NCBI GenBank assembly: GCA_964016885.1
Contig: OZ024741.1
Coordinates: forward strand, 380,742,001-380,806,000
Source of the DNA: Eledone cirrhosa
Lineage: Eukaryota
Length of the DNA: 64,000 bases
Direction of reading: 5' to 3'
Part shown: one piece after another, positions 5,122 to 51,893 of the stretch
How positions within the stretch are numbered: the stretch's first letter is position 1
Layout: each line of letters starts with the position of its first letter
The notes under the pieces: model-generated
Told to the model about the DNA's origin: nothing
The model's input: only the letters and a program-made list of their open reading frames with translations
Databases searched by the model: none
Position numbers and translations under genes: made by a program

Positions 5122-5375
5122 ATGTCATTACAACAGCAGAGGTCCAACGAACCTTTGATTCCAGAGTTGGGCCAGAGTGATACAGATCGAACCGTGAGCT
5201 GATCAATAGTGAACCATGCATCAATAATCGTAATGAAGGCTTAACAATACATCTTTGTATTATTATATTATTATATTACACTCTGTCTAGCTCTACACCT
5301 CACCACTGACTTGAACCTAAACATCGAGTGCTCACCTGGGTGAACCTACATTAACTCTGCGTTACACTCCCTGGA
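4800..5375 (+). mobile_element. Probable non-coding PLE terminal repeat
   Basis: Bounded by (TA)n; GATCA-CTGATGA at ~5054-5065 with TGATC downstream; GAGTGCT ~42 nt before the 3' end. Confidence 0.4.
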
Positions 5376-5393
5376 TATATATATATATATATT

Positions 5394-5793
5394 GTATTAA
5401 CAATTGTTTCATTGATCAGGTGAGTCTAAAGGCCACTAATCACTCGAAGTTGCGTCACTCGACCTTAAATACATGATGATGATGATTTGATCAGAGGTAA
5501 ACACTCTATGTAAGGTCCAGTGACGCAACATTGAGTGATTAGCAGCCTTTAGACTCACCTGATCAATGAAACAATTGTTAATACTAGAAATAAAAGCCTT
5601 TTTGTACAGTCGACCATGTTATTTTTCAATCTTTCACTATTATTACTCCAAGAATAACCTGCATAGGAATTATAGCGAACTCGCTACCTATCTATGGAAG
5701 CTTCTTGTTGAGTCAAACAAATCCGTACATTAAAACTATCCTCAATATGGAGTACTCCCAACCTCCCAACCTATAACGATAACTTGTTGTCCC
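5394..5793 (+). mobile_element. PLE fold-back unit: inverted repeat 5394-5467/5511-5584 plus tail
   Basis: ~74-bp imperfect inverted arms, degenerate hammerhead, GAGTACT at 5750, (TA)n flanks. Confidence 0.6.
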
Positions 5794-6564
5794 ATATATA
5801 TATATATTAATTATATACTCAGATAAATATGTGGATAGAAAACAGAAAGAGAAAAAACAAATTAGTGGGTGCAGAAACATTCATTATAATCTGTTTTACT
5901 TTGTCCTTTCTAGAACTTTCTCCTTAATTTTTCTTTGTGGGCGGGGGAGGGGGGGGGGGGGGTATCTTATTTTCCCAACATAATCTCTCAGAATCTTTTA
6001 ATTTCTGAGTTTCAACTAGTTTAAATCTGCCTTGATGAAATCCAAAGACAGAAATACCAGGTATCTGTAGAAAGTCATTTTAACTCATTTGATACCGACA
6101 CTGTCAAAACAGATTCTAGTTCTATGAAACAAATTCACACATTTTAATGCCATCTTAATTGAAATTAACATATTTCAACATTATTTCATATAAGAACAAT
6201 ATCTTAATTTATTATCTTACTAATGTAATAATTAATAATTTTCTTAAATTATATTAATTAATTAATTAATTGAAATAGAGTGTGATTCATTAAAAGTATG
6301 GTCCCAAAGAGATTGATCTTAATAAACAAATTGAATTTTACTATTTCTGTTTCTAAAAGTCAACAAGAAATATGGATTCTTTTTGTTTTTCTGTGATGGC
6401 TGTTATTATAGAGACAACTTTCTCTCTCCTCTGAAAATGTTTATGAATGAACCAATATAAGTCAACAATTTATTCAGATAAAATGAAAGACTTTGTGATA
6501 TTTAGTTATATATGTTTATGTCTTGTGTTTTAAACTCATGATGATCTATTATAATTTAATTCGC

Positions 6565-6778
6565 AGGGATTGCCAGGAAATCCCAGTAGAAGGAAACCTT
6601 AGTAGAGATAAGCCGAGAAAGATATGGGCAGAGGTGGTGAGAGCTGATTGCAAATAAATGAGACTCACAGAGAAGATGATGAAGGAACACAATGACTGGA
6701 GAGATGCTGTGCTGAAAAAGACTAATCCAATCAATGCAAGCATAGAATAACGAATGTAAAAACGATGATGATGATGAT
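6565..6778 (+). mobile_element. Old RTE 3' fragment
   Basis: G..SRDKPRKIWAEVV-like C-terminal motif and (GAT)n tail. Confidence 0.65.
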
Positions 6779-8284
6779 CTGAGATGCTTTATAGGAATTT
6801 TAAATCAACCATAGTAGAGTGGTTTATTCAAAATCACCTAGATTTGGTTCTACTGCATAGCATCTAGGGCATGTGTCCTCTGGGTAATCTAACCCTTGTG
6901 AGTGAAATTTGGGAAGCAGAAATTGTTTGGAGGCCTGTGAAATGGATTGTAACAGCAATTCAGAGGGCCAGTCATGTTACATATATATGCTTAATCTTCC
7001 TGAGATATAGGTTAAGAGTAATTATATCTGTGAAATACATTACCTCTTACATGTTAATTTAACTGTTCCATTGATTTAATAACTTGGACACTCATTTTCA
7101 AAACTATTGGCAGAGCATTTTATTCCATGTCAAACCATATACAAGTATTTTATAGATACCTGGAGGATGAAAGACAAAAGTGATTTGGCAATATTCTAAA
7201 ACAGACTATAAAAACCTATAACTAATTAACATAGTTATTATGTCCAATTCATTAACAATTCTGCTAATCCAACTTATGTTTTCATTTATCAAGAGTAAAA
7301 TGAAAAGTACCAATACCATGCTAGGGGTCAGTTTAATCTGCTTTATTTAAAGAAACAGAAGGAACAGAAAAGGTTGAATGCCAGATTAGGTGGCTTGTAG
7401 TATTTATTTGTCTGTTCTGAGATCAAATCTTTCTAGAACATTACTGGGATTTACATATTTTTGAAAGCAATAAAACTGGTTAAATAAAACTTGGGAGCAG
7501 TAATTTCTGGAATCAATAAAACTTGGTTAAATCAATTGTACATATCCCATAAAAGAAGTGGAGTGTTAGCCAACAAGACAATTTATATTGCTAGAAATAG
7601 CAGCCAATTCATCATTAAACCAAACTTTAACATCTTCAAAACAAATCAAATAAAAATATAAAAGAAATTGAATAACATGGTTAATATACTATTAGGTACA
7701 CTACTTGAAAATATGATGGAATGGTCATAAGTAGAGCATAAAGTCTTCTTGAACAGAGCTAAATTGTCACTCAACAACAACTACAACATGAGCCACAAAT
7801 AGGGGTTAAAGCAGCAGAAATCAATATTTATTCAAACAATGTTATTAGAGAATATTTACTTTTACAATCATTTTCAAAAATTCTTCCAAATCAATAGATT
7901 TAATTTGCGTGTAAAACAAATAATTCTACAATCCAGGTAGTGCAGCATCCAAACATAATTTCATTTAAAAAGAAAATCAAGATTCAAAAAACCTAGCATT
8001 GATTTATTCTAAGACATTTCTGTAACTGGTTTAAATTCTGTATATATCCTTTGAGAAAGAAACTTGAATGGTAGTATCCCATTACAATTTAGCAACCACT
8101 TGAAAGTGAATCTTTAACAAAAATTGGTTGTATCTATAGTACATACATATAAATACTACACACACACACATACATATATATGTATTGATAGTTATCTTTA
8201 ATACAAAAGGGTTACTAGCGCTAATTACTAACTGTGCATGTGGCTTAAATTGTGCATCTGCACATACATATGCTAAGATGGCCA

Positions 8285-8321
<37 letters not shown>

Positions 8322-8322
<1 letters not shown>

Positions 8323-8958
8323 GCATTTGTGAGTGAATAATAATAATATTATTGATATTCGATTGGTTTGCAAGCAAAAACATTCATAACGCCATGCGTT
8401 CTAGACAACTAGCATCATCCGCTTGTTCCAGCAGTAGCAGAGAGAAATAATCTACATTTCTCTCAGAGTTATTGCCCTTTATCAAGATTGTGTATCTCTC
8501 CTGTTTCTGCTACACACTAGAACTCTTGAGAATAAAATGTATTCTCTGAAGTATACCTTCACTGAATAGCCCTAATTTGCATACAAAGCAATTTTACGGC
8601 TGTAATAAGAGATTTGTTCGTTCTAACATAGGGGATACATAAATGCATTCGTGAGTGAGTAATTATAATATTATAATAATATTATTGATATTCGATTGGT
8701 TTGCAAGCAAACAGCCTCATAAGGGGCAATAACCCTGAAACAATCATAGATTGTTTTACTGTCTGCTACTGCTGGAACAAAAGGATGACATTAGTCATCT
8801 AGAATAGGTGACATGAGGGTGTTTGCTTGCAAATGAATCAAATAGTAATAATTGTTTCTACTTTAGGCACAAGGCCAGAAAATTACCCAGTGCATTACTG
8901 ATACTTTTATTTTATCGACCCCCCAGCTAAAGAAAATACAACACACACACACACACAT

Positions 8959-8996
<38 letters not shown>

Positions 8997-9283
8997 AAAA
9001 TTTGTTTCTGCTCTAACATAGCAGATATGTAAATGTATTTGTGAATGAATAATAATTGTTTCTACTTTAGGCACAAGGCCAGCAATTACCCAGTGCATTA
9101 CTGGTGCTTTATTTTATCGACCCTGTAAGGATAAAAGGCAAAGTCAACCTCGGCGGGATTTGAACTCAGATCGTAAAGGGACGTAACTATGCTGGAAAGC
9201 ATGGCGTCCGACCCTCTACCGATACTGCCATTATCAAATAGTAATAATGTTATCATTATATCATTATTATTCACTCACAAATG
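8322..9283. mobile_element. MITE-like element(s) with inverted termini, interrupted by a SINE
   Basis: catttgtgagtgaataataat at 8324 (similar at 8646) vs attattattcactcacaaatg at 9263-9283; 8360-8480 recurs inverted at 8720-8850. Confidence 0.55.
8853..9232 (-). mobile_element. tRNA-derived SINE interrupted by an inverted duplication
   Basis: 16-bp TSD atcaaatagtaataat at 8837-8852 and 9233-9248; A/B boxes on the minus strand. Confidence 0.85.
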
Positions 9284-9466
9284 GTGGTGGATTGGCAGTA
9301 TCGGTAGAGGATCGGACGCCATGTTTTCCAGCATAGTTACGTCCCTTTACGATCTGAGTTCAAATCCCGCCGAGGTTGACTTTGCCTTTTATCCTTACAG
9401 GGTCGATAAAATAAAGCACCAGTAATGCACTGGGTAATTGCTGGCCTTGTGCCTAAAGTAGAAACA
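9284..9466 (+). mobile_element. tRNA-derived SINE (Meta/MESC-like central domain)
   Basis: A box TGGCAGTATCGG, B box GAGTTCAAATCC, central gactttgcctt..atcctt..gggtcgataaaataaag.acc; ~20-bp TSD attattattca(c/t)tcacaaat. Confidence 0.9.
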
Positions 9467-9529
9467 ATTATTATTCATTCACAAATACATTTACATATCT
9501 GCTATGTTAGAGCAGAAACAAATTTTGTT

Positions 9530-9560
<31 letters not shown>

Positions 9561-9879
9561 ATGTGTGTGTGTGTGTGTTGTATTTTCTTTAGCTGGAAAA
9601 CAAAGAGACAATTGATGTATGTTAGTTGTGGTTAATCATTTGAGCATATATTTTCTAATATGGTTCAGTTTAATTAAAAAAATGTTTCATTCTAATCACC
9701 ACCACCATCACCAGGAACTACTATCACTGCTTGCTATAAGGGTTCTCTCCCTCACAGTGAAAGGCACATTGTATAATGTGTGTAAATGCAATGCTACATG
9801 GTTGTAAAACATAGTTTAATGGATGGGGAACTCATACATTAGAAAATAATGAGGTTAGCATAGTTTGATTGATGTATAA

Positions 9880-10645: not shown

Positions 10646-10681
10646 ATGTACAGTACTTCTATCATTATATGGTTAAAAAAA

Positions 10682-10869
10682 GGGCGGTGGATTGGCAATA
10701 TCATTAGAGTGTCGGACACCATGCTGCTTTGACGCATAGAGTTACGGCCCTTGCCATTCTAAGTTCAAATCCCGCCGAGGTTAACTTTGCCTTTCATCCT
10801 TACGGGGTCAATAAAATAAAGTACCAGTAATGCTCTGGATAATTGCTGGCTGTGCCAAAAGTAGAAAAA
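10682..10869 (+). mobile_element. tRNA-derived SINE, same family
   Basis: Full-length match to the 9284 copy; TSD ttatatggtt(a/c)aaaa on both sides. Confidence 0.9.
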
Positions 10870-11218
10870 TTATATGGTTCAAAATAAAACATGCTTAATG
10901 AAAATTGACCAATAATTATTAAAGTTATTAACAATTTTAAAAAAGGATTTTATTTCTACCCAATCTGTATATATCATCATGATCATATATATACGATTGG
11001 AAGGTTGGTAAAATCGAAGTTGTGATGGTCGGCCAAACTCTGTGGTAGAACAAAAATTTGGATTTGCATGAAGCACTCCATAAGAATGTATCGATAAATT
11101 GATAGGTTACATCTTAGAGGCATAAACATGTTAGATAGGATGACAAATTGAAAACTGTGGTTAAAGGGACAAAGCCAGAGAACCCACCACAACAACGAAA
11201 ATACAATCAGGTTAAATA

Positions 11219-11280: not shown

Positions 11281-11720
11281 AGACCCAAGAAGACCTGGCA
11301 TGAGGTGATAAAGGCCAACCTTACCCAATCAGGTAATCAAGAGCAATGACACACGACCGTGACCTCTGGCGTCACGCAGTAATACAGAAGACACAACCCC
11401 TCACAGGAACAAGCCGAAGCTGAAGCATATAGACAATATGCCCCACACCCTCCCACTGCAAAGTGGTCGTGGAGGAGCCACGGCAAAAAAGCACCCAGCC
11501 CACACTGTAAAGTGGACGTGTAGGCGCACGGAAAAAAGCACCCAGCACTCACTGTAAATGAGGTTGGTGTTAGGAAGGGCATCCAGCTGTATAAATCAAG
11601 CGAGAATCAGTTCCTGTATGAGCAAGACAAAGTCAGTCGACTGGACACTGCTCACAACACGACAACCCGTCTAACCCAGGCTAGCGTGGAAGAACGGACG
11701 TAAAACGATGATGATGATGA

Positions 11721-20140: not shown

Positions 20141-20141
20141 T

Positions 20142-21276: not shown

Positions 21277-21762
21277 AAGGGTGCAGAGCACTAGAAGTCA
21301 ATGGAAACCGCGGAGTGGGGAGACCCAAGAAGACCTGGGATGAGGTGATAAAAGCCGACCTTACCCAATTACACCTCTCAAAGGCGATGACACATGACCG
21401 TGACCTCTGGCGTCACGCAATAATACAAAGTACTCGACCTCCCATGGGTACAAGCTGCAGTATATAGACAATATGCCCCCACACCCTCCCACTGCAAAAT
21501 GGTCGTGGAGGTGCCACGGCAAAAAAGCACCCAGCCCACACTGTAAAGTGGACGTGAAGGCGCCACGGAAAAAAGCACCCAGCACTCACTGTAAATGAGG
21601 TTGGTGTTAGGAAGGGCATCCAGCTGTAGAAATCAAGCCAAAATCAGTTCCTGTATGAGCAAGGCATGGTCAGCCGACCAGACACTGCCCACAACAGGAC
21701 AACCCATCTAACCCATGCTAGCATGGAAGGACAGACGTAAAATGGTGACGATGATGATGATC
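21277..21762 (+). mobile_element. RTE 3' end
   Basis: CRALEVNGNRGVGRPKKTWDEVIKAD, 3' UTR, (GAT)n tail. Confidence 0.92.
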
Positions 21763-29140: not shown

Positions 29141-29547
29141 GCATTTATAAGTATAACTACTCTTCCTCTTCCACGTTAATATTTTTCTTCTTCAAACCTT
29201 TATATATTATATAAATGCATTGAGCCATTCCTTTTTCTTAAAGGAATTCGCAATTACATACTTTAATTTTAATTCTCTACTTTCCTTTGAGAATTGTCAA
29301 TATAGTTCTACCTTTGATATATAATATATATATATATATAACATCATCATCATCATCAATATTTTACGTCCGTTCTTCCACACACATGATTTTCCTGTGT
29401 ATACTCTCCTCTCCTTACGTTATTTCTGTTTGATTTTCCCTCCCCCGTCTCTGTCTACCTTCGCACTCACCCCTTCGTACCCCCCCCCCCCCCCGCATCA
29501 CACACCTCCCTTCTCATTCCTCCCTCTGCTTTCACACCACGCCCACT

Positions 29548-30552
29548 ATGCCCCGCCTGAGATCCTTTCTCCACCAATTCCACACACGCCTCAAACTTTT
29601 CCTCACCCCCCTCCTCCCACTCTGCTATCTCCCCTCGACCCTCCAACTCTCCTACCTTCTCTTCGCCAAAACCCGGCACCCCAGCCACATCCATTTCCTC
29701 AGCCACTGCCTCCACCTCCACCTCATCCCCCTCGGCTTCCGACTACACTTGCACACCTCCTCCTCCATCCAACGTATCCTCACCCGATCCTCGCGCCTCC
29801 TAATGCGCAAATCCCTCCGCTCTTCCCGCTCCATCATCCACAAACTTGACTACCAACTGACCCCCACCCTCCTCCGCATGCCACCCCTCCTCGCCCACTC
29901 CACCCTCCTCTTCATCCAAAAGCTCAACCACGACCTCTTCTCCTTCCTCACCTCCACCAAAGCCCTTAAGCTACACTCACTCCTCCTCCCCCATCCCCCA
30001 TCCCTTCCCTATGACCCCCACACCCATCCCACCCACACCCACCACTATCCACCCCACACCCCTACCCAATATTCACCCCCACCTCAACCCTCACCCCACC
30101 CTCCCCACTCACATTCACACACCCAAACCCCACCACTTGTTGTCACCAATCTCCCTGACCTCCCCGTCTCCGAACCTGAGCGCTCACTCCTCAGTAGAGG
30201 CCTTCGCTTCATACCCCATACTCCGCACAGAGACGAGTTCCGCACCCGAACAGACGTCGAGCGATTCGTGCGACGCACGAAACTACAGGCACATTTTCAT
30301 CAAACGCCACCGGCTCCGAACGCCCCAGACCCGTTTCTCGCCCTGGGCCGACGATAATCGTCTTGGACGCCAGCCTCAAGGCAATTTAGCACCCTGGGCG
30401 CGTTCGTCGCCGCCTGCCGTAGCGCAGTAAATCGCTTCGACTTCCGCCACCGGTCCAAACGGCATAACATCTCACGGGGCGAACTCCTAGCTCTCCACTC
30501 CCTCCCTAGCCGAGATGACATCGTCATCAAACCGGCGGACAAGGGCGCCGTC
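29548..30552 (+). pseudogene. PLE ORF N-terminus (Neptune-like), one in-frame stop
   Basis: LSRGLRFIP, DVERFVRR.KL.AHF; after the stop at 30355 the frame continues WTP...NISRGE..AL....DDIVIKPADKG. Confidence 0.85.
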
Positions 30553-31630
30553 CGTGTAACTTATGCTCAGAGGAAACATTACAAATGCTGTTTACGAAGG
30601 ATCAACTCCTAAACAAAAAAGACGAACTGGTAACTGCATGCAAACAGAGATTGCGTAAGACTTACGTCAAACCCCCTAATGATCCGGGTGGGTATAAAAG
30701 GGCTGAAACACCCACTTGCCGAATAAGATAAGACAAACCCCAGCTTACATAGGTAGATATACCTCTTTTCTTTTCCTCTATGTTTTCTTCTTCCCTTCGT
30801 CTCCTCCTATCACTTCCTTCCACCACCGATCTTCTTCCTCGTTCTTTTTTTTCTCCCTTTCGGGCCTCTGTAGCCTCAGTATTCCCACCCCAGTAACTTA
30901 AAGAAAGCATTTGCCGAATACACTATACTAACTAATCATAGCAGCTGTGTTAGACCCCAGAGATTTTGTATTACATTTTACTACCCAATTCTACAATTTC
31001 AATAATTCTTATTTAGTATCTTCTATTCTCAACTCATTTTATAGCATTGGCCGAAAAAGCAACACCAACTAATTATAGCAGCTGTTTTAGACTCTATAGG
31101 TTTTTGTTTTTTATCATTTCTCACTATCCAATTTTATATATTTATATATCTTTCTCTTATTTTTTTTGTCTGCTAATCTCAATTGATTTACCCATTCTAT
31201 AACGTCCCTCCTCTATTTTCTCCAGAAACCTTTTTTCGCCTACCTCCTCTGGCCTACTTTCATACACAATCCTTAGAATTTGCCATATAGATTTCATTTT
31301 CAACGCTTGACAGCCCCACCCACTCCCTCATTGTTCTACAGGCAAGTTCAGCCACCCCCACTTCCCACCCACTGCCATGATAGACTTATTTGTGTTTGAC
31401 CAATCCTCTTGACAACTACAATCTTCCCATATAAGGAAGGGCTCCTTGAAAAGTTCAGCTACTTATTTACCAGACTAAAAATTCTAATTTAGTCCAGAAA
31501 TAGCCGTGCAAACGGCTTGAGCTCTGCCGTCGGGGTCATACTTTTTCCTATTACCCAGTTTACTACCCTAAGCATTGAGTACTCTGGTGCATTATGGTCC
31601 ATCTGGTTCCTTACCACAACTCCTTCGTTA
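30546..31630 (+). mobile_element. Naiad-type PLE 3' end (ORF tail, UTR, terminal repeat, tail)
   Basis: RPCNLCSEE..LLNKKDELVTACK matches 41147-41290; degenerate hammerhead at 31441-31536. Confidence 0.85.
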
Positions 31631-35362: not shown

Positions 35363-35450
<88 letters not shown>

Positions 35451-35803
35451 ACGTATGGGTTTACCGAACATTTATTATAATGTTCTGTTTGTTTGTAAAC
35501 AAACATCTCGAATTAAGCCATACAGTGTTCGGCAACCATCATTGCCCTTTTGTTCAACACTGACAAAAGAACGATGAACTAGTTTCTAGCTTATTGGTTG
35601 TCATCAGCACAGTATACCTTTCTGTCAATCGATTGAACGTTTGAAAGTATATACTTTCCTTATGCATATTAACGGCATATAATAAATGTTCGGTAAACCC
35701 AAACGTACATGTATATATATGTATGTATATACATACATACTACTGTACGTCTGTATACTACTGTACGTCTGTATACATATATGTATGTACGTATACATAC
35801 ATA

Positions 35804-35888: not shown

Positions 35889-36538
35889 TTATATATATTT
35901 GCATTAGTGATCACATATATTAAAAGAAAATATATATGTGTAACATCTTTCAGTAGTGATTCAAAGTACTGCATTAACCAGCAATCCTATTGTATGGCTA
36001 TTTAAATATTTCTATATACATTTCTCCATACAGCTTTGTTACACTCGATTAAGTGGTATACTTCTAAATATTACAATCATCGAAAGATTCCAAATCTTAC
36101 ATTTTCCCATTAAATACTTCCCTCATTCTATTTTCAATCTATATTAACTTGAATATGTTTAAAGTACTTAGAGTTGTATTATATCCTATTAATTTCACAA
36201 TTCAAATACGTTTAGTACTCTCTTGAACCTTCAAGCAGAATAAGCTATAAACTTTACTTAGTTTATGTATGGATAGATAAATGGATGGAAGTATATATAT
36301 ATATATGGAAGTATGTATATATATAGATGTGTGTGTGTATATATATATATATATAAATATATATATAAATATTAGGGTAAATATTGATGCAATTCAACTC
36401 AAGCACTCAACGTACTTTTTCCACATAGGAGTGACGGAGTAAATATCGAATAAGGAAAAGCGAAGTAGTTTCAGATGTTCAAGTCCTTTAATAACAATGC
36501 TGTGATATATATCTGAAACTACTTCGCTTTTCCTTATT

Positions 36539-36573
<35 letters not shown>

Positions 36574-36810
36574 CGTTATTCCGGGTTGAATCGGAGGTAA
36601 CCACAGTAAATAAGGTACTCAATACATAGCAGAGTATAACAGTTTTAATATAGATGAGATACTACAGGACAAGAACTGTTTCATTCTTTAGAAATCATCA
36701 GGAATCGCTGATGATTTCTAAATCATATTTTAAAACAGCACAATTTGTTACATAAGTACGTTACATTAAAAGCCATCATCATCTAATACAGTAGGTATAA
36801 CATCGCTTAA

Positions 36811-36908: not shown

Positions 36909-36957
36909 GATTCTACAGAACTAGAACTGTTTCATTCTTTAGAAATCATCAGGAATC
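36909..36957 (-). ncRNA. Type I hammerhead ribozyme motif
   Basis: gattc CTGATGA t-ttct-aa-agaa-t GAAA cag-ttctagtt-ctg TA gaatc; a second copy at 36658-36706 (-). Confidence 0.75.
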
Positions 36958-37007
36958 GCTGATGATTTCTAAAGAATGAAACAGTTCTAGTTCTGTAGAA
37001 TCTCATC

Positions 37008-38827: not shown

Positions 38828-38833
<6 letters not shown>

Positions 38834-39778
38834 TATGTACACGTACATACATGTATGTATACAGACGTACAGTAGTATGTATATATATATACATACATGC
38901 ACACATATATATATGTACGTATGGATTCACCGAACATTTATTATAATGCTCGGTGTGTTTGTAAACAAACATCCCGTATAAAGCCGTAGTGTCTAGCAAC
39001 CATCGTTGCTCGTTTGTTCAACACTGACAAAGGAGCGCTGTACTAGTTTCAAGCTTATTAGCTATCGTCAGCAACGTATACCTTCCTGTCAGATTGTTGA
39101 ACGTATATACTTACCTTATGCATATTAACGGCTGAGTAGCCCAATTTGCATATCGAGTGGGTTAATCGGCCGGGTGCACCGATAATAAATGTTCGGTGAA
39201 TCGATACGTACATATATATGTGTGCATGTATGTATATATATATATACATACTACTGTACGTCTGTATACATATATGTATGTACGTGTACATACTTATATT
39301 AAGTAACAGTCGTACTAAATGTGGGATAGAGAAATTTCGTTTCATTTTTTCCGTTTATCGTTTTCGGTGCACCCGGCCGATTAACCCACTCGGTATGCAA
39401 ATTGGGCTACTCAGCCGTTAATATGCATAAGGTAAGTATATACGTTCAACAATCTGGCAGGAAGGTATACGTTGCTGACGATAGCTAATAAGTTTGAAAC
39501 TAGTACAGCGTTCCTTTGTCAGTGTTGAACAAACGAGCAACGATGGTTGCTAGACACTACGGCTGAAAACGGGATGTTTTTTTTTACAAACACACCGAGC
39601 ATTATAATAAATGTTCGGTGAATCCACACGTACATATATATATGTGTACATGTATGTATATATATAGACATACTACTGTACGTCTGTATACATATATGTA
39701 TGTACGTATACATACTTATATTTAAGTAACAGCCGTACTAAGAGTGGGAAATGAAATTTCGTTTCATTTTTTCCGTTT
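38828..39778. mobile_element. Non-coding PLE-type unit: inverted, partial tandem and full copy
   Basis: 38828-39182 is the reverse complement of ~39364-39720; 39183-39358 duplicates the 3' part. Confidence 0.8.
39469..39511 (+). ncRNA. Minimal type I hammerhead ribozyme motif
   Basis: acgttg CTGACGA t-agct-aata-agtt-t GAAA c-ta-g TA cagcgt; mirror copy at 39035-39077 (-). Confidence 0.8.
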
Positions 39779-39920: not shown

Positions 39921-39922
<2 letters not shown>

Positions 39923-42544
39923 CGAAGGAAATGTGGTAAGGAACCAGGTGGACCATAACGCACCAAAGTATTCAATACTTAGGGTAGTAGAGTGGGTAAT
40001 AGGAACTAGTAGGACCCCGACGGCTGAGCTCAAGCCGTTTCGACGGCTATTTCTGGACTAAATGAAGATTTTTATCCTGGTATTTGAATAGCCGAGCTTC
40101 TCAGGGGGTAATTCCATATATGGTAAAAGTGATTATCACAAGGATTGGTCAACTCACCGATATGTTTCCTGCATTCGGCGGTGGAGTGTACCGTGATGAT
40201 AGGCTCCTTACCCTTAAAGGGTACGACCCCAGTAGTACAGACCGGGTCCGTAAACAATTAATCAGCTTCTCCTGCGACTGGCGATTTTAAATAACCCTAC
40301 AAACGTCCCTGACCCGAGTAAACTTCCTGGACGTTACCCTTGACCTCGATAATGATCTGTACTACCCATACAGGAAACCCAATGACAACCTGCACTACTT
40401 CCACCGCCGGTCAAATCATCCTAGGAACATCACCAATAACCTGGTTAAAAACATCTCCCTCCGCATATCTCGTTTGTCCGCTAATGAGCAGATATTCGAG
40501 AAACATGCGCCTTATTACAATCAGGCCCTCAAGCGGAGTGGCTTCCGGGAGGAAATATCCTACTGTCCAGCTTCCATTAGCGGAACCAGCAGACGACACC
40601 GCCGCTCACGCAATGTAACATGGTTCAATCCTCCTCGCAACACCGATGTGACATACTCCTATCGGGAAAATCTTCTTTAGGCTCATCGAAAAACACTCCC
40701 CTCTACGACACCGCTACCACAACATAATCAACAAAAATACCATCAAACTCTCCTACAGCACCACACCAAACTTTGCACAAAACACCGTCTCCTCTAACAA
40801 CAAAAATCTCAACCCCTATGGAAGAAATAACCTAAATTGCAGTGGAGAGCCGACCAGGAGGTGCAACTGTCCTGATGGATCCATTTTCCCCCTCGACAAC
40901 AGATGCAGAGATCGTAATGTGATCTACCAGTGCAACGTGAGGACGGACACCTCCAACAAAGCTTATATAGGATTATCCGCATGTGACTTCAAGACCCGGC
41001 TATACCAACACTGACATACTTTCCGAAACCCGGCCCGGCTTCACGCCACCACACTTTCGGGCCACATCTGGGACCGCAAAGATAACAATATTACCTATGA
41101 TCTCACTTGGAGCTTACTGTCCAGAGCCAAATCTCACACGGGAGGACGCCGTCCGTAAAATTTATGCTCGGAGGAAACTTTACAAATGCTATTTTCGACG
41201 GACCAACTCCTAAAAAGAAAGACGAACTGGTAACTGCATGCAAACACAGATTACGTAGGACTTACTTCTCCCTCAAACCCCATAATGACCCGGGAGAGGG
41301 GGGGTAGACAAGGGCTGTAACACCCCACTTGCCGACTTTGTAATGGGTAACCCCTGCTTGCAAAGGTAGACGTAAGATCTTCCTTTATATCTTTTTATCG
41401 TTTCCTCTATATTTCCTTCTTCCCCCCATCCCTTCCTAGTCCTTCCACCCCAGTCCTCCTTCTTTGTCGTCGTCCTTTTCACTTTCTCGCCCACCCGAGG
41501 CAGCCCCTCGGTCCTTTGTAGCCTCAGGTCTTTGTACCCCCATCCCCTATTCTATGATAGAATTGGCCGACTCCGCTTTTTAAAGCAGATGTGATAGACC
41601 CCAGATACTTGCTTTCTTATCCGATGGCTGCCCCATTTCCGTGCTTTCTACATTTCTTAGTGGTATCTCTGCTTTAATTTCTCGTATATCAGTATTTTTT
41701 TTGGGGGGGGGGGATTCTGAATTAATTTTCCGTATCAAATTTTTCATATACTTCGTACGAGCATTTATGTAGTTTGCACTAGAATTTTTGTATCGTAGCG
41801 GCACCCTTAGAGATAGTATTAGTATTCATTTTCGGGATTCTGAATTATTATTTCGTATTAGTTTACTTTTTGCACTGGGTGGTTGCTGGCCTTGTGCCTA
41901 GGGTAGAAACAATTATTTCGTATTAGTTTCGGGACTCTGAATTATTATTTCGTGGTAGTTTCTTTAGTATTTTGGCCCCCCACTTGTTGACCTGTCACCG
42001 TAAGATATACTCGGTTGATTACTACTAACTCTTAAAATGGTCTCACTACAATTCCGTCCCACCTAGTAAACTTTTCTATAGTTTAGCAGTAACAGTGAGA
42101 GACTTGATGACTGTGGGTAGGGAATAGTAACCAGAATTTGTTTTTTTTTATATTTTTAACATTCTTGGTATTCTTCTATATATTTACTCCATATTGATTT
42201 ACTTATTGTTTCGACTTCCTCCCCCTCCCCCTCCCTAGTATACTTGCTTGACCTCCTGCTCTGCTGTAGTTGGCACTATCAACGCACGACTGGGTTTCTT
42301 CCACTCCCTCTCCCTCTTTCTTCTACTGGCAGGTTCAGCTACCCCTTCCTTCCACAAATTGCCATGATAGAATTATGTGTCTCAACAACAAACTTTTGAC
42401 CAATCCTTGTGACAATCACTTTTACCATATATGGAATTACCCCCTGAGAAGGTCGGCTATTCATATACCAGGATAAAAATGTTCATTTAGTCTAGAATTA
42501 GCCGTCGAAACGGCTTGAGCTCAGCCGTCGGGGTCCTACTAGTT

Positions 42545-42548
<4 letters not shown>
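39921..42548 (+). mobile_element. 5'-truncated Naiad-type PLE with an inverted terminal repeat at its 5' end
   Basis: Inverted repeat 39921-40152; ORF remnant 40153-41290 with GVYRDD, NFLDVTL, PYRKPN, SNHP, WFNPP, SYS..PN, CNC..PL..C, VIYQC..AYIG (GIY-YIG), NLC..E; hammerheads at 40014-40109 (-) and 42439-42534 (+); (TA)n flanks. Confidence 0.9.
41865..41912 (+). mobile_element. SINE 3' stub inside the Naiad UTR
   Basis: tgcactgggt..ttgctggccttgtgccta..gtagaaaca flanked by duplicated attatttcgtattagttt. Confidence 0.7.
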
Positions 42549-44243: not shown

Positions 44244-46230
44244 TCATCATCACCATTTTACATCCTTTCTTCCACGCTAGCATGGGTTAGACAGGTTGTC
44301 CTGTTGTGGGCAATACCAGGTCAGGTGACCACGTCTTGCTTATACAGAACTAATTTTGGCTTGCTTTCTACAGCCGGATGCCCTTCCTAACACTAACCTC
44401 ATTTACAGTGAGTACTCGGGGCTTTTTTACTGTGGCACCTACATGACCTCTTTACAGTGTGGACTGAGTGCTTTTTTGTTGTGACACCTACACGACCATT
44501 TTACAGTGGGAGGGGTGGGAGGCATACTGTTGATACACTTCAGCTTTGGCTTGTACCCATGGAAAGTTCTTGGTCCTGTCTCATCACCTTTGAGAGGTGC
44601 AACTGGGTAAGGTCAGCTTTTATTACCTCATGCCAGGTCTTCTAGCCCCCCCCCCCACTCCAAGGCGTTCAATCGACTTTAAGTGCTCTGCACCTTTTTG
44701 TACAGCTGTCATACTTCATATGCATCACATGTCCATACCAATGTAATCTCCTCTCCTGCACACTGCATTTTACTCCTCTTATGCTTAATCTTTCTCTCAA
44801 TTCGTTCATGCTTTGCTGTTCACTTATATTACTATTACACATCCAGCGGAGCATGCAAGCTTTGTTTCTTTGTAATCTACACAAGACTTCTGCATACAAT
44901 ACCCAGGTCTCACTATCATGTAACATTGCTGTTCATTTGCATGCATCATACTGTCTGCCTTTCATTTTGAGGGGAAAGCCTTTTGCAGCTAGCAGTAGTA
45001 GTAGCTCCCAGAACTTCTTCCATCCTGTTCTTACCCTGGTTACTGTACTTTCAGCTCTGCTAATAATTCAGTCACCTAGGTAGCAGCAGCTGTCTATGTT
45101 TCTACAGAGCCCTCCCAGAATTTGGTAGCGCTTGTTTCCTGTGGCCGTTTGCTGCTTACTGTCCCACTACATCTCTTGTGTACCCATAGTTTGCATTTGA
45201 GGAAGAGGAACAGAAATGGGTTAAGAAGTGAAAATTCATGCAGTTGTACCTTTACCATGAGTTCCATATTAAACTCTCTGCCTATTCTCACTTTACTGAC
45301 AACTCCTCTGTACAAGGCTTGCACCACTCTCACAAGCCAATGTACCTAGGTTATTTAATGACCACTAGATGGTAGATTGTGGTAATCTCTCCAAAACCAT
45401 CTCAAGATCAACAAAAGCTAGATACAGTGGCGTACTCTTATCTAAGAACTTCTCTTGTAGTTGTCTGACACAAAGAGGGCATCTGTGGTGCTTTCCCTGG
45501 CATACAACCAAACTGCATCTCATCTAATTTGACTCTTTCCCTAATCATTTGTGCTAGAAGTCTTTCTGTCTCATTCATAACTTTTATTCCCTTGTAGTTA
45601 CTCCCTTCTAGGGCATCCCTGTTGTATTTGTAGCAATTACAGATTATACTGATGCACCCGTCATTGGGTATGACTGTCCATAATGGTCTATTGAAGATCC
45701 AGGTGACTAGTTTAAAACCTACTACCCCAGACACTTTCAGCATCTTAGTGACTATCTCAGATAGTCCAGTGGCTTTACCATTTTCCATCTCATTGATTGC
45801 TTCTTTGACCCTATAGCACTGAAGATCAATAGCTGATCCCTCTGTTGGGTCAGATAGGAGTTGTTTTCCTTCCCTCCATTCCATCTCCACATCCTTATAG
45901 TAGAATTTCAAGGCCACTTTCTTTTGAGCATCACTGAAGTTAAGTGCACCTGTATCATTTCAAACATACTTTTCTGCAACAATATCCTGATTCACTGAGA
46001 CACTGTCATGCAAAGCAGAATACTTTATGTCTGATTTTCAAGTCACAGGACATCAGAATGCCTGCTTCTTTCAGCCTCTTTAATGTTAATGCTACGCATA
46101 CCTTTTGTCTAACCTCTCCTTTAGCTAACCGCTTCTGGTCTCAGCTGGCTACATTTTTCCAGTCTTTCCATACTGGCCTCTTGGATTTAATGTACTATTC
46201 ACTGTACTATTCAACCACCAGATCATTCTC
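44244..46230 (-). mobile_element. RTE LINE, decayed and internally deleted
   Basis: LDEMQFG, HDSETW, ERRLHWYGHV; 3' UTR and (CAT)n at the left end. Confidence 0.9.
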
Positions 46231-48732
46231 TGTCAGCCTTATGTATAGATATATATATATATATATACATATATATATAGATATAGATATATATCAAAAT
46301 ATATTATTCTGATACAGTTACACCATAAAAACTTCAATCCCAATTTTCAGAATATCATTTACACAATAATATTCATATTTAGTAAAACAAAGCATAGTAA
46401 GTAAAAATACATTTAAAGGCAAACTCAATTTTACTTACATTATAATTAGTAAATTCAATTATATTGCTTACACTGCTGATTCTCACAACAAGGAAAAAAG
46501 TATTAATTACAATAATTAAAATGGTTAATCAGTAAATTAAGACTATTTATCCCCACCAGTAAGCTTGATTTAAAGATAAATAAGCTTACACAAAGGAATT
46601 TGAATGAATTTAATTGCGTTAGTATGAAAGCTACATAGATGAGTAACTTCACCATTCAAAATCTCACATGGTTTAATAAAAAAAAAACCCACAAGTCTTT
46701 TTGCTTACTATGCTTTATTTTAGTATATACAAATATTTTTATACCTCAATTATATTGTGTATATATATGTATATATATGTATGTATGTATTGTTAGCATA
46801 ACTAAGTCAGCATTAAACATAAGAGGGATGTATATAAAAGCATATATTACTTGTTCATTTACAATAAACATATGTGAGCTTTACTATCAAAGAAAAAATA
46901 TCATTTCATTAGGAAAAAGTTATTTTTCTCTCTTTTGCTCTGTGAACATGTCACAGATATCTCAATAACAGCCGAAAATGCCAGATAGGGCTCTTTCAAG
47001 ATTTGTTAAACATCTGTCAGTTACTCAACTGGTACTGAGATGCAAACTAGACTAGAGTCTATATTTTGCATGATGAACATTTGCTGGATATGCTCATTTT
47101 CATATAGTAAATAGAAAACAACAGCTGAAAATGCCCATTTACATATAGTATGAACTTGACTATGATTAATTGGCAGTAGCAGTAACACAGCATTAAGAGT
47201 AATAGAAGGGTATATGAACGTATGTATTGAAGTTCTCTTTACCCATATGTATCAGGCAAAAATATCCCTTACCCTACAGATATTCCTGCTTCAACATTTT
47301 TCTGGGGATATTTTTGTCAAATAAAAATTTAAATTACAAATTCTGTAGTTAGACGTATGCTAAAATTAATCCCTACTCATTATGGCCATTGGTCTGGACA
47401 AGAGTAAATAATATCGGAACAATGTTTCAGTTGCTTGATCAATGGACAAGATTACTCATGGAATTATTGTGTAAATAACTGAGCATGTACTCTTAACCTA
47501 TATCTCAGGGAGATTTAGAATGACACCATAGATGACAAGGTTGTTGACCCTTTTAATTATAAGCACAGTCCACCTGATGAGCTTCCAAGCAGTCTCATCT
47601 ATCCAACATCATTGAAAAAGCTTGAGTTAATCCATGACCATTTTAAATAACTGTTGCCCAAGGTACCTTATGACTGCAAAGTGAACCTCTTAATTATTTG
47701 ACCCTGTTGTGTCTACAATATTACACAATCAAAAATAATTATTTTACTTTAAATGAAACATAGAAGCCAAAGTGGGAGCCTCTATTCATTTGCTTACCTT
47801 GGTAGAAACTGTGGACAAATCTCCTTGAATTACACTTGATTGTCTTAGGCAAAGGAAGGGCATGTCAGATATTGCAGTGCTTATACACTATAACACTATA
47901 TTAAAAAGTGAGATGGTCATGGCTGGAATGTCTTTGATCAAAAGTCTGCTAGATCAGAGCTGACATGGGGCTAAATGCCACCACCACCACCAACAACAAC
48001 AGCAACAAAAACAACAAATATAACATAGAAATACTTTCACTAGTGATCATCTCTTGAAATATTTAGACCAAATATTTGTTGTGATCTTCAAATAAAATAT
48101 CTCCTTTCAAATACTTAATGGATATTGGTTTAGTTAATCCTGTTTATGAACAAAACCTATATACACACACTTTTAAGAGAAATCTCATATCACTGATTGA
48201 AAAACGTAATGCAATTATAAAGGAAAGTCTGGAAATGTTGTTTAACCCAAGGTCAACCCTAATTGAGCAAGCATATGATCAAAGCAGTGATGGAAATAGG
48301 AGGAAGCAGGAATATACAGAGTTATGATGTTCCCCCACTTTTCCGTTTTCATGGGGAGGAGTAGCTTCTACTCCACCTTTAGGCTCACTGATCTTAATTT
48401 CTATAACTTCTCGGCCTCACAGACATAATTTCTAAAATCCATCACTTGTTCAAAGATATTCCAACTTTGTCTACTCCATCTCTTTCATAAATCTGGAAAT
48501 ATACTGCTTAATATATGCTTTCATTTTAGGATGGTACTGTGTGATTTCATGTGGATTTGGCTACTATGTATAGCTGGGTAAGCAATCATATACAGGCAAC
48601 TTTGCAAATGAATAATTTTCAGTTTGTACTTTGTATATCTTTCCTTTAGATAGAGTAATCATGTTTACTCTCATGGTGAAATTTCAGCCCCACTGAGTGG
48701 GATTCAGAATGAAATTGAAAATATGATAGATA

Positions 48733-48835
48733 TAATTGTTTCTACATTTGGCACAAGGCCAGCAATTACCCAGTACATTACTGGTACTTTATTTTATATT
48801 TCCGTAAGAATGAAAGGCAAAGTTAACCTCGGTGG
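48733..48835 (-). mobile_element. tRNA-SINE 3' half
   Basis: Matches the 9284 family in reverse. Confidence 0.85.
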
Positions 48836-49249
48836 AGATATAATGATGGTAAAATTTTTGCTGGTCTGTCACTTACTTGAAGTACATTGTCAACATTGTG
48901 TTTGTGAATTTGTTTTTTATATGGGAGGATGCCATGTCAACACTGTGTACTAACACAACACACTTATTAATTATACAATATGCTGCACATCGCTATAATA
49001 GTAAATTGCACTTTTTCTCAATATTAGATTACAACAATTAGGACTTGGTCATTAAGCATTAAATGCCATGCGCGTGGACAGCGAGCAATATTGGCAATAA
49101 GATGATAAAACGTTGGTAAAAAAACAATAATGTTTGACTTATCACATCTCACTTTTCTCCCTCTTCAGAGCTTAGCTTCTCTCACAACAGCATGATAACA
49201 TTTTTGTCTAGTATGTGCGTGTATGTTGTTGGGCCTCAATCATTTCTGC

Positions 49250-50010
49250 TAACAAGTGCTCCTATTCATTCAACTAATGGAAATGCATGCTTGTGAAATT
49301 GACGTTTAAGTGGCTGAGCATTCTAAAGGTAAGTGCATTCTTAATGTAATTCTCAGGGAGTTTTAGCTTGATAGAATATGAGTCTAGGCTTGCCCTTTGA
49401 ATTACAGGCACAACTCATTTATGTCAGGTGAGTGGCCTGGAGTTTCATGAAATAAAGTGCCTTGCTTAAGGACACAATGTGCTGCCAGTCAAGGATTGAA
49501 CTCAGAACCTTATAATTATGAGCTGAACAGCAAAACTACAAAGCCATACATGAAGGCGTGTGGCTCAACGGTTAGGTGCTGAGCTCATGATCAGCGGGCC
49601 ATGAGTGAGTTCAATTTCCGAAATAACTTCAGTAATTCTCTCCAAATTCTTAAATCATTAATTCAGATAGTGTATTTCATTAGAAATATATTAATGAAAG
49701 TATTAAATAGATTTCATTTTTTCAACAATCTGACATTATAATGTCAATGTAATCATTTACATAGTCTTACATCTATGCCCATGACCTTTGCAGGACTATC
49801 TACACTGATGAGAGGATGTTTTAATTATTGTCTAATCCACTGTTATCTCTTAAGGTACATGACTTAGAAGTTAGAGCATCAAGCTTACGATAATGAGTTT
49901 GTGGGTTTGATTCCAAAATCAGGTGATGCATTGTGTCATTGAGCAAGACACTATTTCATGCCACCCTAGTTTACTCAACTGTAGAAATGATTTGCAATGT
50001 CAGTGGTGCC
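49250..50010. mobile_element. Cluster of older CORE-like tRNA SINEs
   Basis: tgtgtc(a/c)tt(g/a)agcaag(a/g)cact motif on - (~49456) and + (~49933); tRNA-like heads at 49555 and 49855. Confidence 0.55.
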
Positions 50011-50213
50011 AGAATCAGTACCCGTCCCACCCTTGCAAGCAGGGAAAAGCGGACGTAAAATGAAATGATGATGAATGATGATATCTGATGGAGTGTCTGC
50101 AATGGTTGTTAGATACTGAAGTTTCTTTTTTGTCTTAAAACTTGAACTTTCACATTCTATTTTAACAGTTAGCTGTGTGGTTCACTTGCAACATTTACTG
50201 GTAAAATATAATA

Positions 50214-50412
50214 ATGGTTTCTTATATAGGCACAAGGCCAGTAATTTGGGGGGAGGGGAAAGTCGATTAAATCGACCCCAGTGCGTGACTGGTACTTTAT
50301 TTTATCGACCCCATAAGGATGAAAGGCAAAGTTAACCTCGGCGGGATTTGAGCTCAGATCATAAAGAGCCATAACTCTATGCTGCAAAGCATGGTGTCCA
50401 ACCCTCTACCGG
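50214..50412 (-). mobile_element. tRNA-derived SINE
   Basis: 16-bp TSD ctggtaaaatataata at 50198 and 50413. Confidence 0.9.
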
Positions 50413-50429
50413 CTGGTAAAATATAATAT

Positions 50430-50983
50430 TGTCAGCCTTAGTGATGTACTGAAGTTAGTTATTAAAACTGTTGAACAAGCTAAAATTGAATGCTTTGCCT
50501 TAACGAATTTTCCATTTTCTGAGCCTTGACAATGTTGATGGCTATGTCAAGCTTCTGTACCACACAGAAGTAAAATGGTTGTCAAAAGACAACTGCGTTT
50601 TCCGTTTTGTTAAACTGTTTCATACAATGATAATTTTTTTTCAAAAACACTCCACTAACAACTTCTCTGACTGCTTCAAAATGCTTAACGTTACCATAAA
50701 GTAACCTTTACCACATGATTAAATTATATCCTTTATAATTGAATTTAATAAAATGGAGTTTTAAATGGTCAAGTTTGCTTTCATTTATTCTTTAATATGG
50801 TGTTGGCAGTAGCAGTCACATACATTAGCATTATTTGTTACACCACTTTAGGTTTTTTTACATCATAAAAAATCATTTAACATAATGGTACAAAATAATT
50901 TTGGTATGCTTTTGAATATCTACCATACAGTTGGGTTTTCCATGTGAAAGTGGGTGATCATGCAAAAAAGTTGGAAAGCCCTG
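50430..50983 (+). pseudogene. hAT (Charlie/Buster-like) remnant
   Basis: LLYHTEVKWLS at 50552; right end ...aaagttggaaagccctg resembles a CAGGG-type TIR. Confidence 0.65.
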
Positions 50984-51053
50984 ATATATATATATAGCAA
51001 CATCATCATTTAAAATCTATTTTCACTGCTAGCAAGGGTTGTATATCTATCTA

Positions 51054-51092
<39 letters not shown>

Positions 51093-51294
51093 TCATCATC
51101 ATCATCATCATCATCGTTTAACATCCATTTTCCACGCTAGCATGGGTCTGGACGGGAATTGTTACACTTGAGGCAAGATTGGTTGTCTTGCTCAGGACTG
51201 TCTGGCGGGTTTTCTTCCTAACACCAACCACGTTTACAGTGTGGACTGGGAGGTTTTTAACATGTTATCTACACAGCCTGTTACCTACACGGCC

Positions 51295-51325
<31 letters not shown>

Positions 51326-51414
51326 ATGTAGGAGGTGAGTTTTATTGTAGTACAATAAAGCAATGCAGATATCGGATAAGAAGCACTCTACAGTTTGTAG
51401 GACTGGAGTATGCG

Positions 51415-51753
51415 TAATATAAGATCAAAAGATGGTTAAAGGAGTTCCATGTATTTTATTATGCGCATTTCAAAAACAAACATCATCATGCAATAATATT
51501 TGTGTTTTCATCAGATAAAACAGGAGAACATGATATGAAGGCTAAAAAACACTTGTGGATAGTGCAGTTTTAAATCAACACTTTTCATATGTTGATTTAA
51601 AACTGCACTATCCACAAGTGTTTTTTAGCCTTCATATCATGTTCTCCTGTTTTATCTGATGAAAACACAAATATTATTGCATGATGATGTTTGTTTTTGA
51701 AATGCGCATAATAAAATACATGGAACTCCTTTAACCATCTTTTGATCTTATAT

Positions 51754-51755
<2 letters not shown>
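51415..51755. repeat. Perfect 166-bp inverted repeat with 9-nt spacer (PLE fold-back)
   Basis: 51415-51580 is the reverse complement of 51590-51755; the left arm has an extra tail 51327-51414. Confidence 0.92.
51650..51716 (+). ncRNA. Type I hammerhead ribozyme motif
   Basis: ttttat CTGATGA [long stem II] GAAA t-gcgc-a TA ataaaa; mirror copy at 51454-51520 (-). Confidence 0.82.
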
Positions 51756-51798
<43 letters not shown>

Positions 51799-51893
51799 GT
51801 AGAACACTGGAAGGTAATATCCATAGTGGTAGAGCACTCAGTTCATGGGACGAGTTAGGTAGAAGTGGTTACACAACAGTTAGTTCACCATAC

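What the first reader, a model, noticed from the sequence alone, without database searches (positions are those of the whole stretch)
5326..51839. GAGTRCY motif at a fixed distance from the 3' terminus of unrelated hammerhead-bearing elements
Seen: on the element strand GAGTGCT/GAGTACT/GAGTACC lies ~30-55 nt before the junction with the microsatellite at 5326, 5750, 31577 (+) and 36402, 36614, 51382, 51833 (-), and is degenerate at 39967. The tails otherwise look unrelated. The 39.7-kb family lacks a clean match. Inference: a shared cis signal for PLE RT recognition or 3'-end formation that lets non-coding units be mobilised. I cannot confirm whether it is already described.
Basis: partly seen in the sequence, partly recalled or inferred. 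Interest (0 to 1): 0.72.

Follow-up and report, generated by a model that had tools for sequence, protein, structure and literature searches.

The report
Twin hairpins mark Penelope retroelement ends
The short motif is one side of a small predicted hairpin that Hydra-type Penelope jumping genes carry twice just before their gene; inserted copies mostly stop 5-9 letters before one hairpin or the other, so the pair likely tells the element's reverse transcriptase where to start copying, and at least one non-coding parasite keeps both hairpins.

Summary
The motif is real. In 1.2 Mb of evenly sampled genome, GAGTRCY lies 30-69 nt before (TA)n 73 times against about 8 expected.

It is the 3' strand of a bulged hairpin, RCTC-Y…R-TN-GAGY-RCY. 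Its distance to the 3' end varies by family (31-73 nt), so it is not fixed.

The elements are mostly Hydra-clade Penelope-like retrotransposons. Full-length copies carry two hairpins between the hammerhead and the ATG. The short insertion end lies 5-9 nt 5' of hairpin 1, the long end 6-8 nt 5' of hairpin 2. The one-sided 'tail' is the interval between them. Of 41 inverted insertions, 34 pair a long with a short end.

The same layout occurs in metagenome Hydra-type loci and in published sea-cucumber and coral consensus sequences. A 1.3-kb non-coding unit keeps both hairpins. Neptune-type and 39.7-kb hammerhead families lack the motif.

Best reading (0.6, inferred): the hairpins position internal reverse-transcription starts. 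The main rival is endonuclease cutting beside a DNA hairpin. Six literature searches found no description. This scan has noted the same hairpin pair repeatedly on other DNA.

The parts
5280..5332 (+). Hairpin 1 of a short hammerhead family (ACTC arm 5280-5283, TC bulge, GAGTGCT 5326-5332); long end at 5374. No ORF was found in 20 relatives examined.
5481..5579 (+). Hammerhead remnant with long stem II and damaged 5' core box (5750 family); the family lies downstream of a Hydra-type endonuclease in L139
5645..5716 (+). Boundary hairpin of the 5750 family (ACTC...TT-GAGT, followed by CAA instead of RCY); the family's short end lies 8-9 nt 5' of it
   Evidence: 5 short ends in relatives
5735..5756 (+).
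31444..31531 (+). Hammerhead of family 1 (damaged core in this copy)
31557..31583 (+). Hairpin 1 of family 1; the 5' arm is mutated in this copy, while relatives have ACTC
36402..36440 (-). Hairpin 1 of a non-coding ~1.3-kb tandem hammerhead unit; inverted short-ended arm ends near 36540
36614..36635 (-). Hairpin 1 of family 2, which reads through into a Hydra-type ORF in L403
36668..36701 (-). Minimal hammerhead of family 2 (further copies at 36919-36952 - and 36959-36992 +)
39967..39993 (-). Hairpin 1 of family 1 with GAATACT variant, in the long-ended inverted arm (about 39922-40150)
40019..40104 (-). Hammerhead of the inverted arm (family 1)
40151..41300 (+). 5'-truncated, interrupted Hydra-type RT (YRDD) and C-terminal GIY-YIG endonuclease
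42444..42546 (+). Hammerhead and short end of the direct arm; it stops 8 nt before the position of hairpin 1
51382..51409 (-). Hairpin 1 of a family linked to a Hydra-type endonuclease (L102); hammerheads at 51460-51514 (-) and 51656-51710 (+), short end near 51753
51833..51855 (-). Hairpin 1 of family 4 (1-nt bulge; Hydra ORF in L120 and L302); hammerheads at 51898-51927 (-) and 51943-51972 (+), short end at 52008
38832..39777 (.). Counter-example: 39.7-kb family, a ~420-nt non-coding tandem hammerhead unit with a one-sided ~62-nt tail but no RCTC/GAGY hairpin (hammerheads at 39041-39071 -, 39475-39505 +)

Best explanation
GAGTRCY is the 3' strand of a small predicted bulged hairpin that Hydra-clade Penelope-like elements carry twice between the hammerhead and the start codon; insertion ends lie 5-9 nt 5' of one copy or the other, and the hairpins likely position the element's reverse transcriptase at two internal start sites on its RNA. 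Shown: (1) the consensus RCTC-Y-(4-70 nt)-R-TN-GAGY-RCY with compensatory pairs; (2) two copies in full-length elements; (3) the short end 5' of copy 1 and the long end 5' of copy 2, usually at a TA/AT dinucleotide; (4) inverted insertions mostly pair one long with one short end; (5) a non-coding unit keeps both copies. Inferred: the RT-endonuclease binds a hairpin on a tandem or read-through transcript; the endonuclease nicks (TA)n; the nicked 3' end anneals to the TA just 5' of the hairpin and primes cDNA synthesis there. Two starts, one per target strand and one per hairpin, would give head-to-head arms, with the interval between the hairpins appearing as the one-sided tail. Any RNA that keeps the hairpins would be mobilised in trans.
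For: Bulge of exactly 2 nt: descriptor counts for bulge 0-4 are 40, 25, 122, 41, 65; the other control counts are 15-40, except RTY at bulge 2 (79); shuffles give 28-36. Selection on primary sequence alone: the first inner pair forms in 28 of 49 clusters in the 2-nt register against 10-19 in the other five; metagenome subset 12 of 17 against 1-7. Outer pair G-C 26, A-T 7, G-T 2 of 35 clusters; first bulge base T in 40 of 43. Two copies before the ATG: L105 family (23 of 29 printed loci with both copies, most others 5'-truncated), family 1 (L291-L301) and family 4 (L302), the non-coding unit (L397), metagenome loci L218, L221, L224, L234, L239, L240, and published Hydra-1_Ajap, which begins with both copies (read by eye). 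End offsets: 150 of 197 matched own-genome junctions lie 5-9 nt 5' of a hairpin, after removing 31 rows caused by one chimeric locus; 79 of the 150 are the two ends of family 1. In the unbiased sample plus window, 41 of 80 long-ended copies had an inverted arm: 34 ended 0-16 nt 5' of hairpin 1 (25 at 7-9 nt), 2 further 5', and 5 reached into or past the hairpin. In window 39922-42546 the short-ended arm (2.4 kb) is longer than the long-ended arm (0.23 kb), so neither arm is a fold-back copy of the other. Precedent: the Anolis element PAc starts reverse transcription at two internal sites that match the tail ends (PMC11167929).
Against: No binding or RT assay was run. The hairpins are weak: z-scores are between -1.4 and 0 for 6 of 8 window sites, and in many metagenome copies only one inner pair forms. 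The folding strand is unresolved: internal G-U against A-C is 5 to 1 per cluster (p=0.22), and the antisense strand folds more stably in 20 of 35 clusters against 12. Some families deviate: decayed copy 1 and a long end about 20 nt from copy 2 in the L113 family; GAGT-CAA plus an extra hairpin in the 5750 family; 1-nt bulge in family 4; TTA instead of RCY in L093. Other two-ended hammerhead families have no such hairpin. In PAc the start sites lie inside an AC-rich stem-loop within the ORF, a different geometry.
Confidence: 0.6

Rival explanations
1. The hairpins act as single-stranded DNA signals. The element's GIY-YIG endonuclease binds them in an integration intermediate and cuts 5-9 nt upstream, trimming the ends.
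For: The bacterial GIY-YIG nuclease SsnA binds an ssDNA hairpin and cuts a few nucleotides upstream of it (PMC11893778, passages), the same geometry as here. Craig et al. ascribe the tail to endonuclease-mediated resolution. The Penelope tail was required for endonuclease cleavage in earlier work, as cited in PMC11167929. The end sites are TA-rich like the target. The strand test does not favour RNA clearly.
Against: SsnA does not act on RNA, and no Penelope endonuclease is shown to be ssDNA-specific. Hairpin 2 is absent from long-ended insertions, so sequence beyond the primer site would have to be made and then removed. No peak of 5' junctions at the short-end site (1 of 102 within 10 nt in the unbiased set). 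In PAc the ends coincide with RT starts in vitro.
Confidence: 0.2
2. The motif is a double-stranded DNA or 5'-UTR regulatory element (internal promoter, autoregulatory binding site or translation signal), and the ends fall beside it only because TA-rich priming sites happen to lie there.
For: Both copies lie in the 5' UTR, 20-70 nt before the ATG, where Penelope has its internal promoter. GAGYRCTC is a degenerate palindrome, and all four YR combinations occur.
Against: The spacer between the arms varies from 8 to about 70-85 nt and pairs internally, which suits a folded single strand. The 5-9 nt offset holds across unrelated flanks and for both copies. A unit whose ORF is gone keeps both copies.
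Confidence: 0.12
3. The motif is inherited similarity among related tails, without a current function.
For: The carriers are related Hydra-clade elements (about 37-50% protein identity between most families), and young families inflate the hit counts.
Against: The flanks do not align between families while the motif and its register persist, with compensatory changes, in this genome, in metagenome loci and in published coral and sea-cucumber elements.
Confidence: 0.04

Closest known systems
Hydra clade of C-terminal-endonuclease Penelope-like elements (Craig et al. 2021, PMC8557442; seen: passages, section 11, supplement parts 1, 2, 52, 53 and a motif search)
   Same: RT plus C-terminal GIY-YIG with CxCX5C linker, DKT motif, hammerhead at the 3' end, (TA)n insertion, inverted 5'-truncated arm and one-sided tail. 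Their own consensus sequences hold the hairpin (Hydra-2_Amil, Hydra-2_Ajap, two copies at the 5' start of Hydra-1_Ajap, variants in Hydra-1_Crog).
   Different: The text seen does not mention the hairpin ('stem-loop' has 0 occurrences in the main text). Tails here are about 60-160 nt, not 30-40. The family 1 unit is about 3.5 kb, not under 3 kb.
Internal RT initiation of the Poseidon element PAc, Anolis carolinensis (Frangieh et al. 2024, PMC11167929; parts 1-2 of 4 read)
   Same: Two internal start sites bound the tail; AT-rich target; a stem-loop is involved.
   Different: PAc starts inside an AC-rich stem-loop 111-118 nt into the ORF. Here each end lies 5-9 nt upstream of its own copy of a repeated hairpin in the 5' UTR, conserved across phyla.
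Non-LTR retrozymes as non-autonomous Penelope derivatives (bioRxiv 10.64898/2026.07.22.740005, parts 1-3 of 5 read; PMC4209133, parts 1-2 of 4 read)
   Same: Non-coding tandem units with type I hammerheads, thought to be mobilised by Penelope proteins; the 36408 and 39.7-kb families fit this.
   Different: No cis signal for mobilisation is named in the parts read; the 36408 unit points to one.
SsnA and its hairpin motif (PMC11893778, passages)
   Same: GIY-YIG enzyme; hairpin with sequence-specific flanks; event a few nucleotides upstream.
   Different: Bacterial, stand-alone, ssDNA-specific; no sequence similarity was tested.
RT-recognition RNA structures: R2 3' UTR, LINE/SINE 3' stem-loops, hepatitis B epsilon, telomerase template boundary element (recalled, not from a call)
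   Same: A structured RNA element recruits the RT and fixes where copying starts.
   Different: Those are single elements at or near a template end or boundary; here a repeated pair defines two starts.

Membership tests
Hydra-clade PLE | Single ORF with RT and C-terminal GIY-YIG endonuclease | tested here: met
   Open frames of 784 and 722 codons with YRDD and YIG/YVG in that order (L293, L302). Pfam gave no hit for L302, so the assignment rests on motifs.
Hydra-clade PLE | CxCX5C linker | tested here: met
   Present in L293, L302 and L053; last Cys changed in L205 and in the window copy
Hydra-clade PLE | DKT and RWK motifs | tested here: met
   DKT in L293, L302, L205; DKA in L093; RWR in three proteins and RWK in L105
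Hydra-clade PLE | No CCHH motif; CxxC and CxH near the C-terminus | tested here: met
   CxLC..E and CKH in L293 and L053; absence of CCHH judged by eye
Hydra-clade PLE | Hammerhead at the 3' end and (TA)n insertion | tested here: met
   Descriptor: 161 hits in 1.26 Mb, 137 with (TA)n downstream, 2 hits in 0.3 Mb shuffled. Self-cleavage was not tested.
Hydra-clade PLE | Length generally under 3 kb | tested here: not met
   Family 1 tandem period is about 3.5 kb (L298). This is a descriptive trait, not a clade definition.
Hydra-clade PLE | Placement in an RT tree with published Hydra proteins | not tested
   No tree was built; published sequences were compared by eye only
PAc-type internal RT initiation | cDNA starts at two internal RNA sites that equal the genomic ends | not testable with these tools
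   Only the genomic two-end pattern is shown
Non-LTR retrozyme (36408 family) | Non-coding tandem unit with type I hammerhead | tested here: met
   ~1.3-kb permuted unit with short ORF remnants only; no RT or endonuclease hit within the unit
Non-LTR retrozyme (36408 family) | Self-cleavage and circular RNA | not testable with these tools
   No assay; no RNA run available
Known Rfam RNA family | Covariance-model hit at gathering threshold | tested here: not met
   None of 80 window hits reaches its gathering score; nearly all are miRNA models on repeats or palindromes

The most novel reading that the evidence does not exclude
Hydra-clade Penelope elements use a tandem pair of identical RNA hairpins as a two-position ruler. 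A dimeric RT-endonuclease binds both and starts two cDNAs, one on each nicked target strand, 6-8 nt upstream of each hairpin. This one signal explains the one-sided tail, the head-to-head insertions and the trans-mobilisation of non-coding hammerhead units, and it is the Penelope counterpart of telomerase's template-boundary element.
Probability: 0.4. Interest if true: 0.8.

Novelty: new variant of a known kind. Interest (0 to 1): 0.62.

Why it matters
How Penelope-like elements, the sister group of telomerase RTs, choose their start sites and why they leave a one-sided tail is an open question. One in vitro study shows internal initiation, without a conserved signal. A ~20-70-nt motif that is conserved across phyla and predicts both ends to within a few bases makes the question directly testable with hairpin deletion, spacing and swap mutants. 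This genome holds many copies with long intact frames to test. The motif also offers a way to assign non-coding hammerhead repeats to their mobilising element, to fix consensus boundaries, and possibly a minimal RNA handle for (TA)n-directed insertion.

Tried and rejected
1. Rfam scan: no family at threshold.
2. 'Fixed distance to the 3' end': rejected, 31-73 nt by family.
3. The motif as part of the hammerhead: rejected, it lies about 40-140 nt past the cleavage site.
4. A Neptune-type family appeared to carry the hairpin (13 junctions at offset 8). This traced to one chimeric locus, L033; the other relatives printed have a different upstream sequence. 31 rows were removed.
5. Short end as a transcription start or 5' cut site: no peak of 5' junctions (1 of 102 unbiased and 3 of 152 targeted within 10 nt).
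6. Snap-back synthesis as the general source of the two arms: excluded for 39922-42546 by arm lengths; not excluded for the small palindromes.
7. RNA versus DNA strand by wobble pairs and folding energy: inconclusive.
8. My first reading of a GAGTAGT near the end of Hydra-1_Amil as the motif was wrong; that consensus stops at the short end.
9. Naiad and Chlamys consensus sequences: six 9-mer variants gave 3 matches, all inside long internal sequence, against 4 at Hydra ends. This test is weak because line breaks split words and few variants were tried.
10. A genome search with the 39.7-kb tail returned nothing, which shows nothing.
11. No RNA holder listed.
12. No protein-complex or structure prediction was run.
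Full report
Observation. All seven matches are in the window at the stated places, and 39967 is a one-base variant. The window lies in a 3.0-Gb genome of 1,796 contigs. For a chance test I fetched 120 stretches of 10 kb at even positions and oriented 1,327 flanks toward (TA)n runs. GAGTRCY counts per 10-nt bin from the junction were 0, 2, 3, 10, 39, 11, 13, 6, 4, 1, 7, 2 against 1.97 expected; shuffled words were flat. After single-linkage clustering the contrast is 78 hits in 17 clusters against 0-14 hits in 0-14 clusters. Family-level support therefore comes from about ten multi-copy families with unalignable flanks, not from the cluster count alone. The distance to the junction is tight within a family but differs among families: 31, 37, 40, 42, 45, 54, about 60 and 73 nt.

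What the motif is. Most true instances have RCTC 8-70 nt upstream. The consensus is RCTC-Y…R-TN-GAGY-RCY: a 4-bp stem, a 2-nt 3' bulge, a further stem of one or more pairs, and an unpaired RCY. A structural descriptor gave 122 hits with a 2-nt bulge against 25-65 for other bulge sizes and 28-36 in shuffles. With instances chosen by primary sequence only, chance matches included, the first inner pair formed in 28 of 49 clusters in the 2-nt register and in 10-19 in the other registers. The outer pair switches between A-T and G-C (7 and 26 of 35), so GAGCACT and GAGCGCT belong to the same motif. The fold is weak on its own, and the strand test is inconclusive.

Which elements. Window 39922-42546 is a 5'-truncated RT plus C-terminal GIY-YIG with 3' UTR, hammerhead and an inverted arm. 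Full-length relatives show CxCX5C, DKT, YRDD and C-terminal CxxC/CxH, the features Craig et al. give for the Hydra clade. The families at 31577/39967, 51839, 51388, 5750 and 36620 link to Hydra-type coding sequence. The 36408 family is a ~1.3-kb non-coding tandem unit with only short ORF remnants. For the 5326 family no ORF or read-through copy was found in the 20 of 30 fetched loci that matched the motif pattern; shared sequence stops near the hammerhead start. A Neptune-type family and the 39.7-kb non-coding unit have hammerheads and two ends but no motif.

Two copies, two ends. Upstream of intact ORFs the order is hammerhead, hairpin 1, hairpin 2, ATG. This holds for the L105 family, family 1 and family 4, L093 with a variant trinucleotide and the non-coding unit; in L403 copy 2 is decayed. 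In family 1 the short end is 8 nt before hairpin 1 and the long end 6 nt before hairpin 2; in family 4, 6 and about 7-8 nt; in the L105 family, 8 (some 14-16) and 6 nt; in the non-coding unit the long end is 6 nt before hairpin 2. Matching all junction flanks to read-through copies gave 228 own-genome rows. 31 came from one chimeric locus and were dropped. Of the remaining 197, 150 lie 5-9 nt 5' of a hairpin. This locus set is enriched for family 1 (79 of the 150). A further 100 junctions matched only within or after a hairpin, where no read-through copy with a next hairpin was at hand. The template after the junction starts with TA or AT in 163 of 230 rows, counted before the drop. In the unbiased sample plus window, 41 of 80 long-ended copies had a detectable inverted arm; 34 of these ended at the short site.

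Outside this genome. An RT alignment fetched 80 loci from metagenome contigs at 34-55% identity (hosts unknown). Of 25 hammerhead-flank groups, 11 have at least one hairpin and 5 have two. Of the other 14, five stop at (TA)n or a contig end within 60 nt, about three show variants by eye, and the rest show none. In several loci the second copy is followed 20-25 nt later by an ATG and the Hydra N-terminus. Of the six Hydra consensus sequences in the supplement of Craig et al., read by eye, Hydra-2_Amil and Hydra-2_Ajap end with the hairpin, Hydra-1_Ajap begins with two copies, Hydra-1_Crog has variants at both ends, and Hydra-1_Amil and Hydra-1_Obim stop short without a clear copy.

Mechanism. 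The positional rule, the covariation and the retention in a non-coding unit are shown. I infer that the element protein binds a hairpin on read-through RNA and that a nicked (TA)n end primes cDNA at the TA just upstream of it; two hairpins give two starts and hence head-to-head arms with one tail (0.6). This agrees with PAc, where the tail ends are RT starts and a dimer was predicted. The main rival is cutting by the GIY-YIG domain beside an ssDNA hairpin, for which SsnA is a precedent and which matches the resolution idea in Craig et al. (0.2). A promoter or translation role is less likely (0.12).

Novelty. The elements, hammerheads, (TA)n targeting, tails and non-autonomous derivatives are known. 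Six searches of the held library listed no paper whose title or abstract start describes this hairpin pair, and the texts I read or searched do not mention it. Subscription papers, Repbase reports and several supplements were not seen. This scan has recorded the same reading on other pieces of this genome and on other genomes. Those are unchecked AI notes, seen after my reading was formed, and are not counted as support. Verdict: a real, apparently undescribed cis element of a known clade; new variant of a known kind; interest 0.62.

Noticed in passing
window 38832-39777, 35437-35770; L051:4883-6327: The 39.7-kb family is a ~420-nt non-coding tandem hammerhead unit. Its tail, like that of another family (L051, L146), ends in a GAAA-rich/TTTC-rich palindrome instead of the Hydra hairpin, possibly the signal of a different Penelope clade.
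   Followed up: partly
L033:4050-4440: A Neptune-type element end is fused to another family's tail exactly 8 nt 5' of its hairpin, that is, at the short-end site. It is a one-off chimera.
   Followed up: partly
L311-L340: An abundant family (2,213 first-look candidates) carries the hairpin but shows no canonical hammerhead core or ORF in at least 450 nt of shared upstream sequence.
   Followed up: partly
window 29434-31630: Composite: the N-terminal part of a different Penelope-like ORF is joined to the C-terminal end, 3' UTR and tail of a Hydra element.
   Followed up: no
window 36919-36992, 51533-51637, 51898-51972: Small palindromic insertions invert at or just before the hammerhead 5' core box; most copies of the 5326 family also begin there.
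   Followed up: partly
L221, L224, L227, L235 (20-40 nt after the hammerhead cleavage site): A third, unbulged ACTC/GAGT hairpin precedes hairpin 1 in several metagenome elements, hinting at an older triplication.
   Followed up: no
L151-L180; table: A Hydra family with many open frames of about 830 codons and identical scores, apparently young; its hairpin 1 is decayed and its hammerhead has a very long stem II.
   Followed up: partly
window 40019-40104, 42444-42529: Family 1 hammerheads read CTGAGAAG or TTGAGAAG rather than CTGANGA, with a ~55-nt stem II, so standard descriptors and Rfam miss them.
   Followed up: no
window 11454-11558, 21490-21595, 44396-44508, 55617-55722: An abundant, apparently unrelated repeat with 47-49-nt tandem units holds GAGTGCT/GGGTGCT matches away from (TA)n; these are background matches.
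   Followed up: no
L135:1-10000: Very long low-complexity tandem repeat with an open frame of over 2,600 codons (Val/Thr/Ile-rich, or Asn/Ser-rich on the other strand).
   Followed up: no
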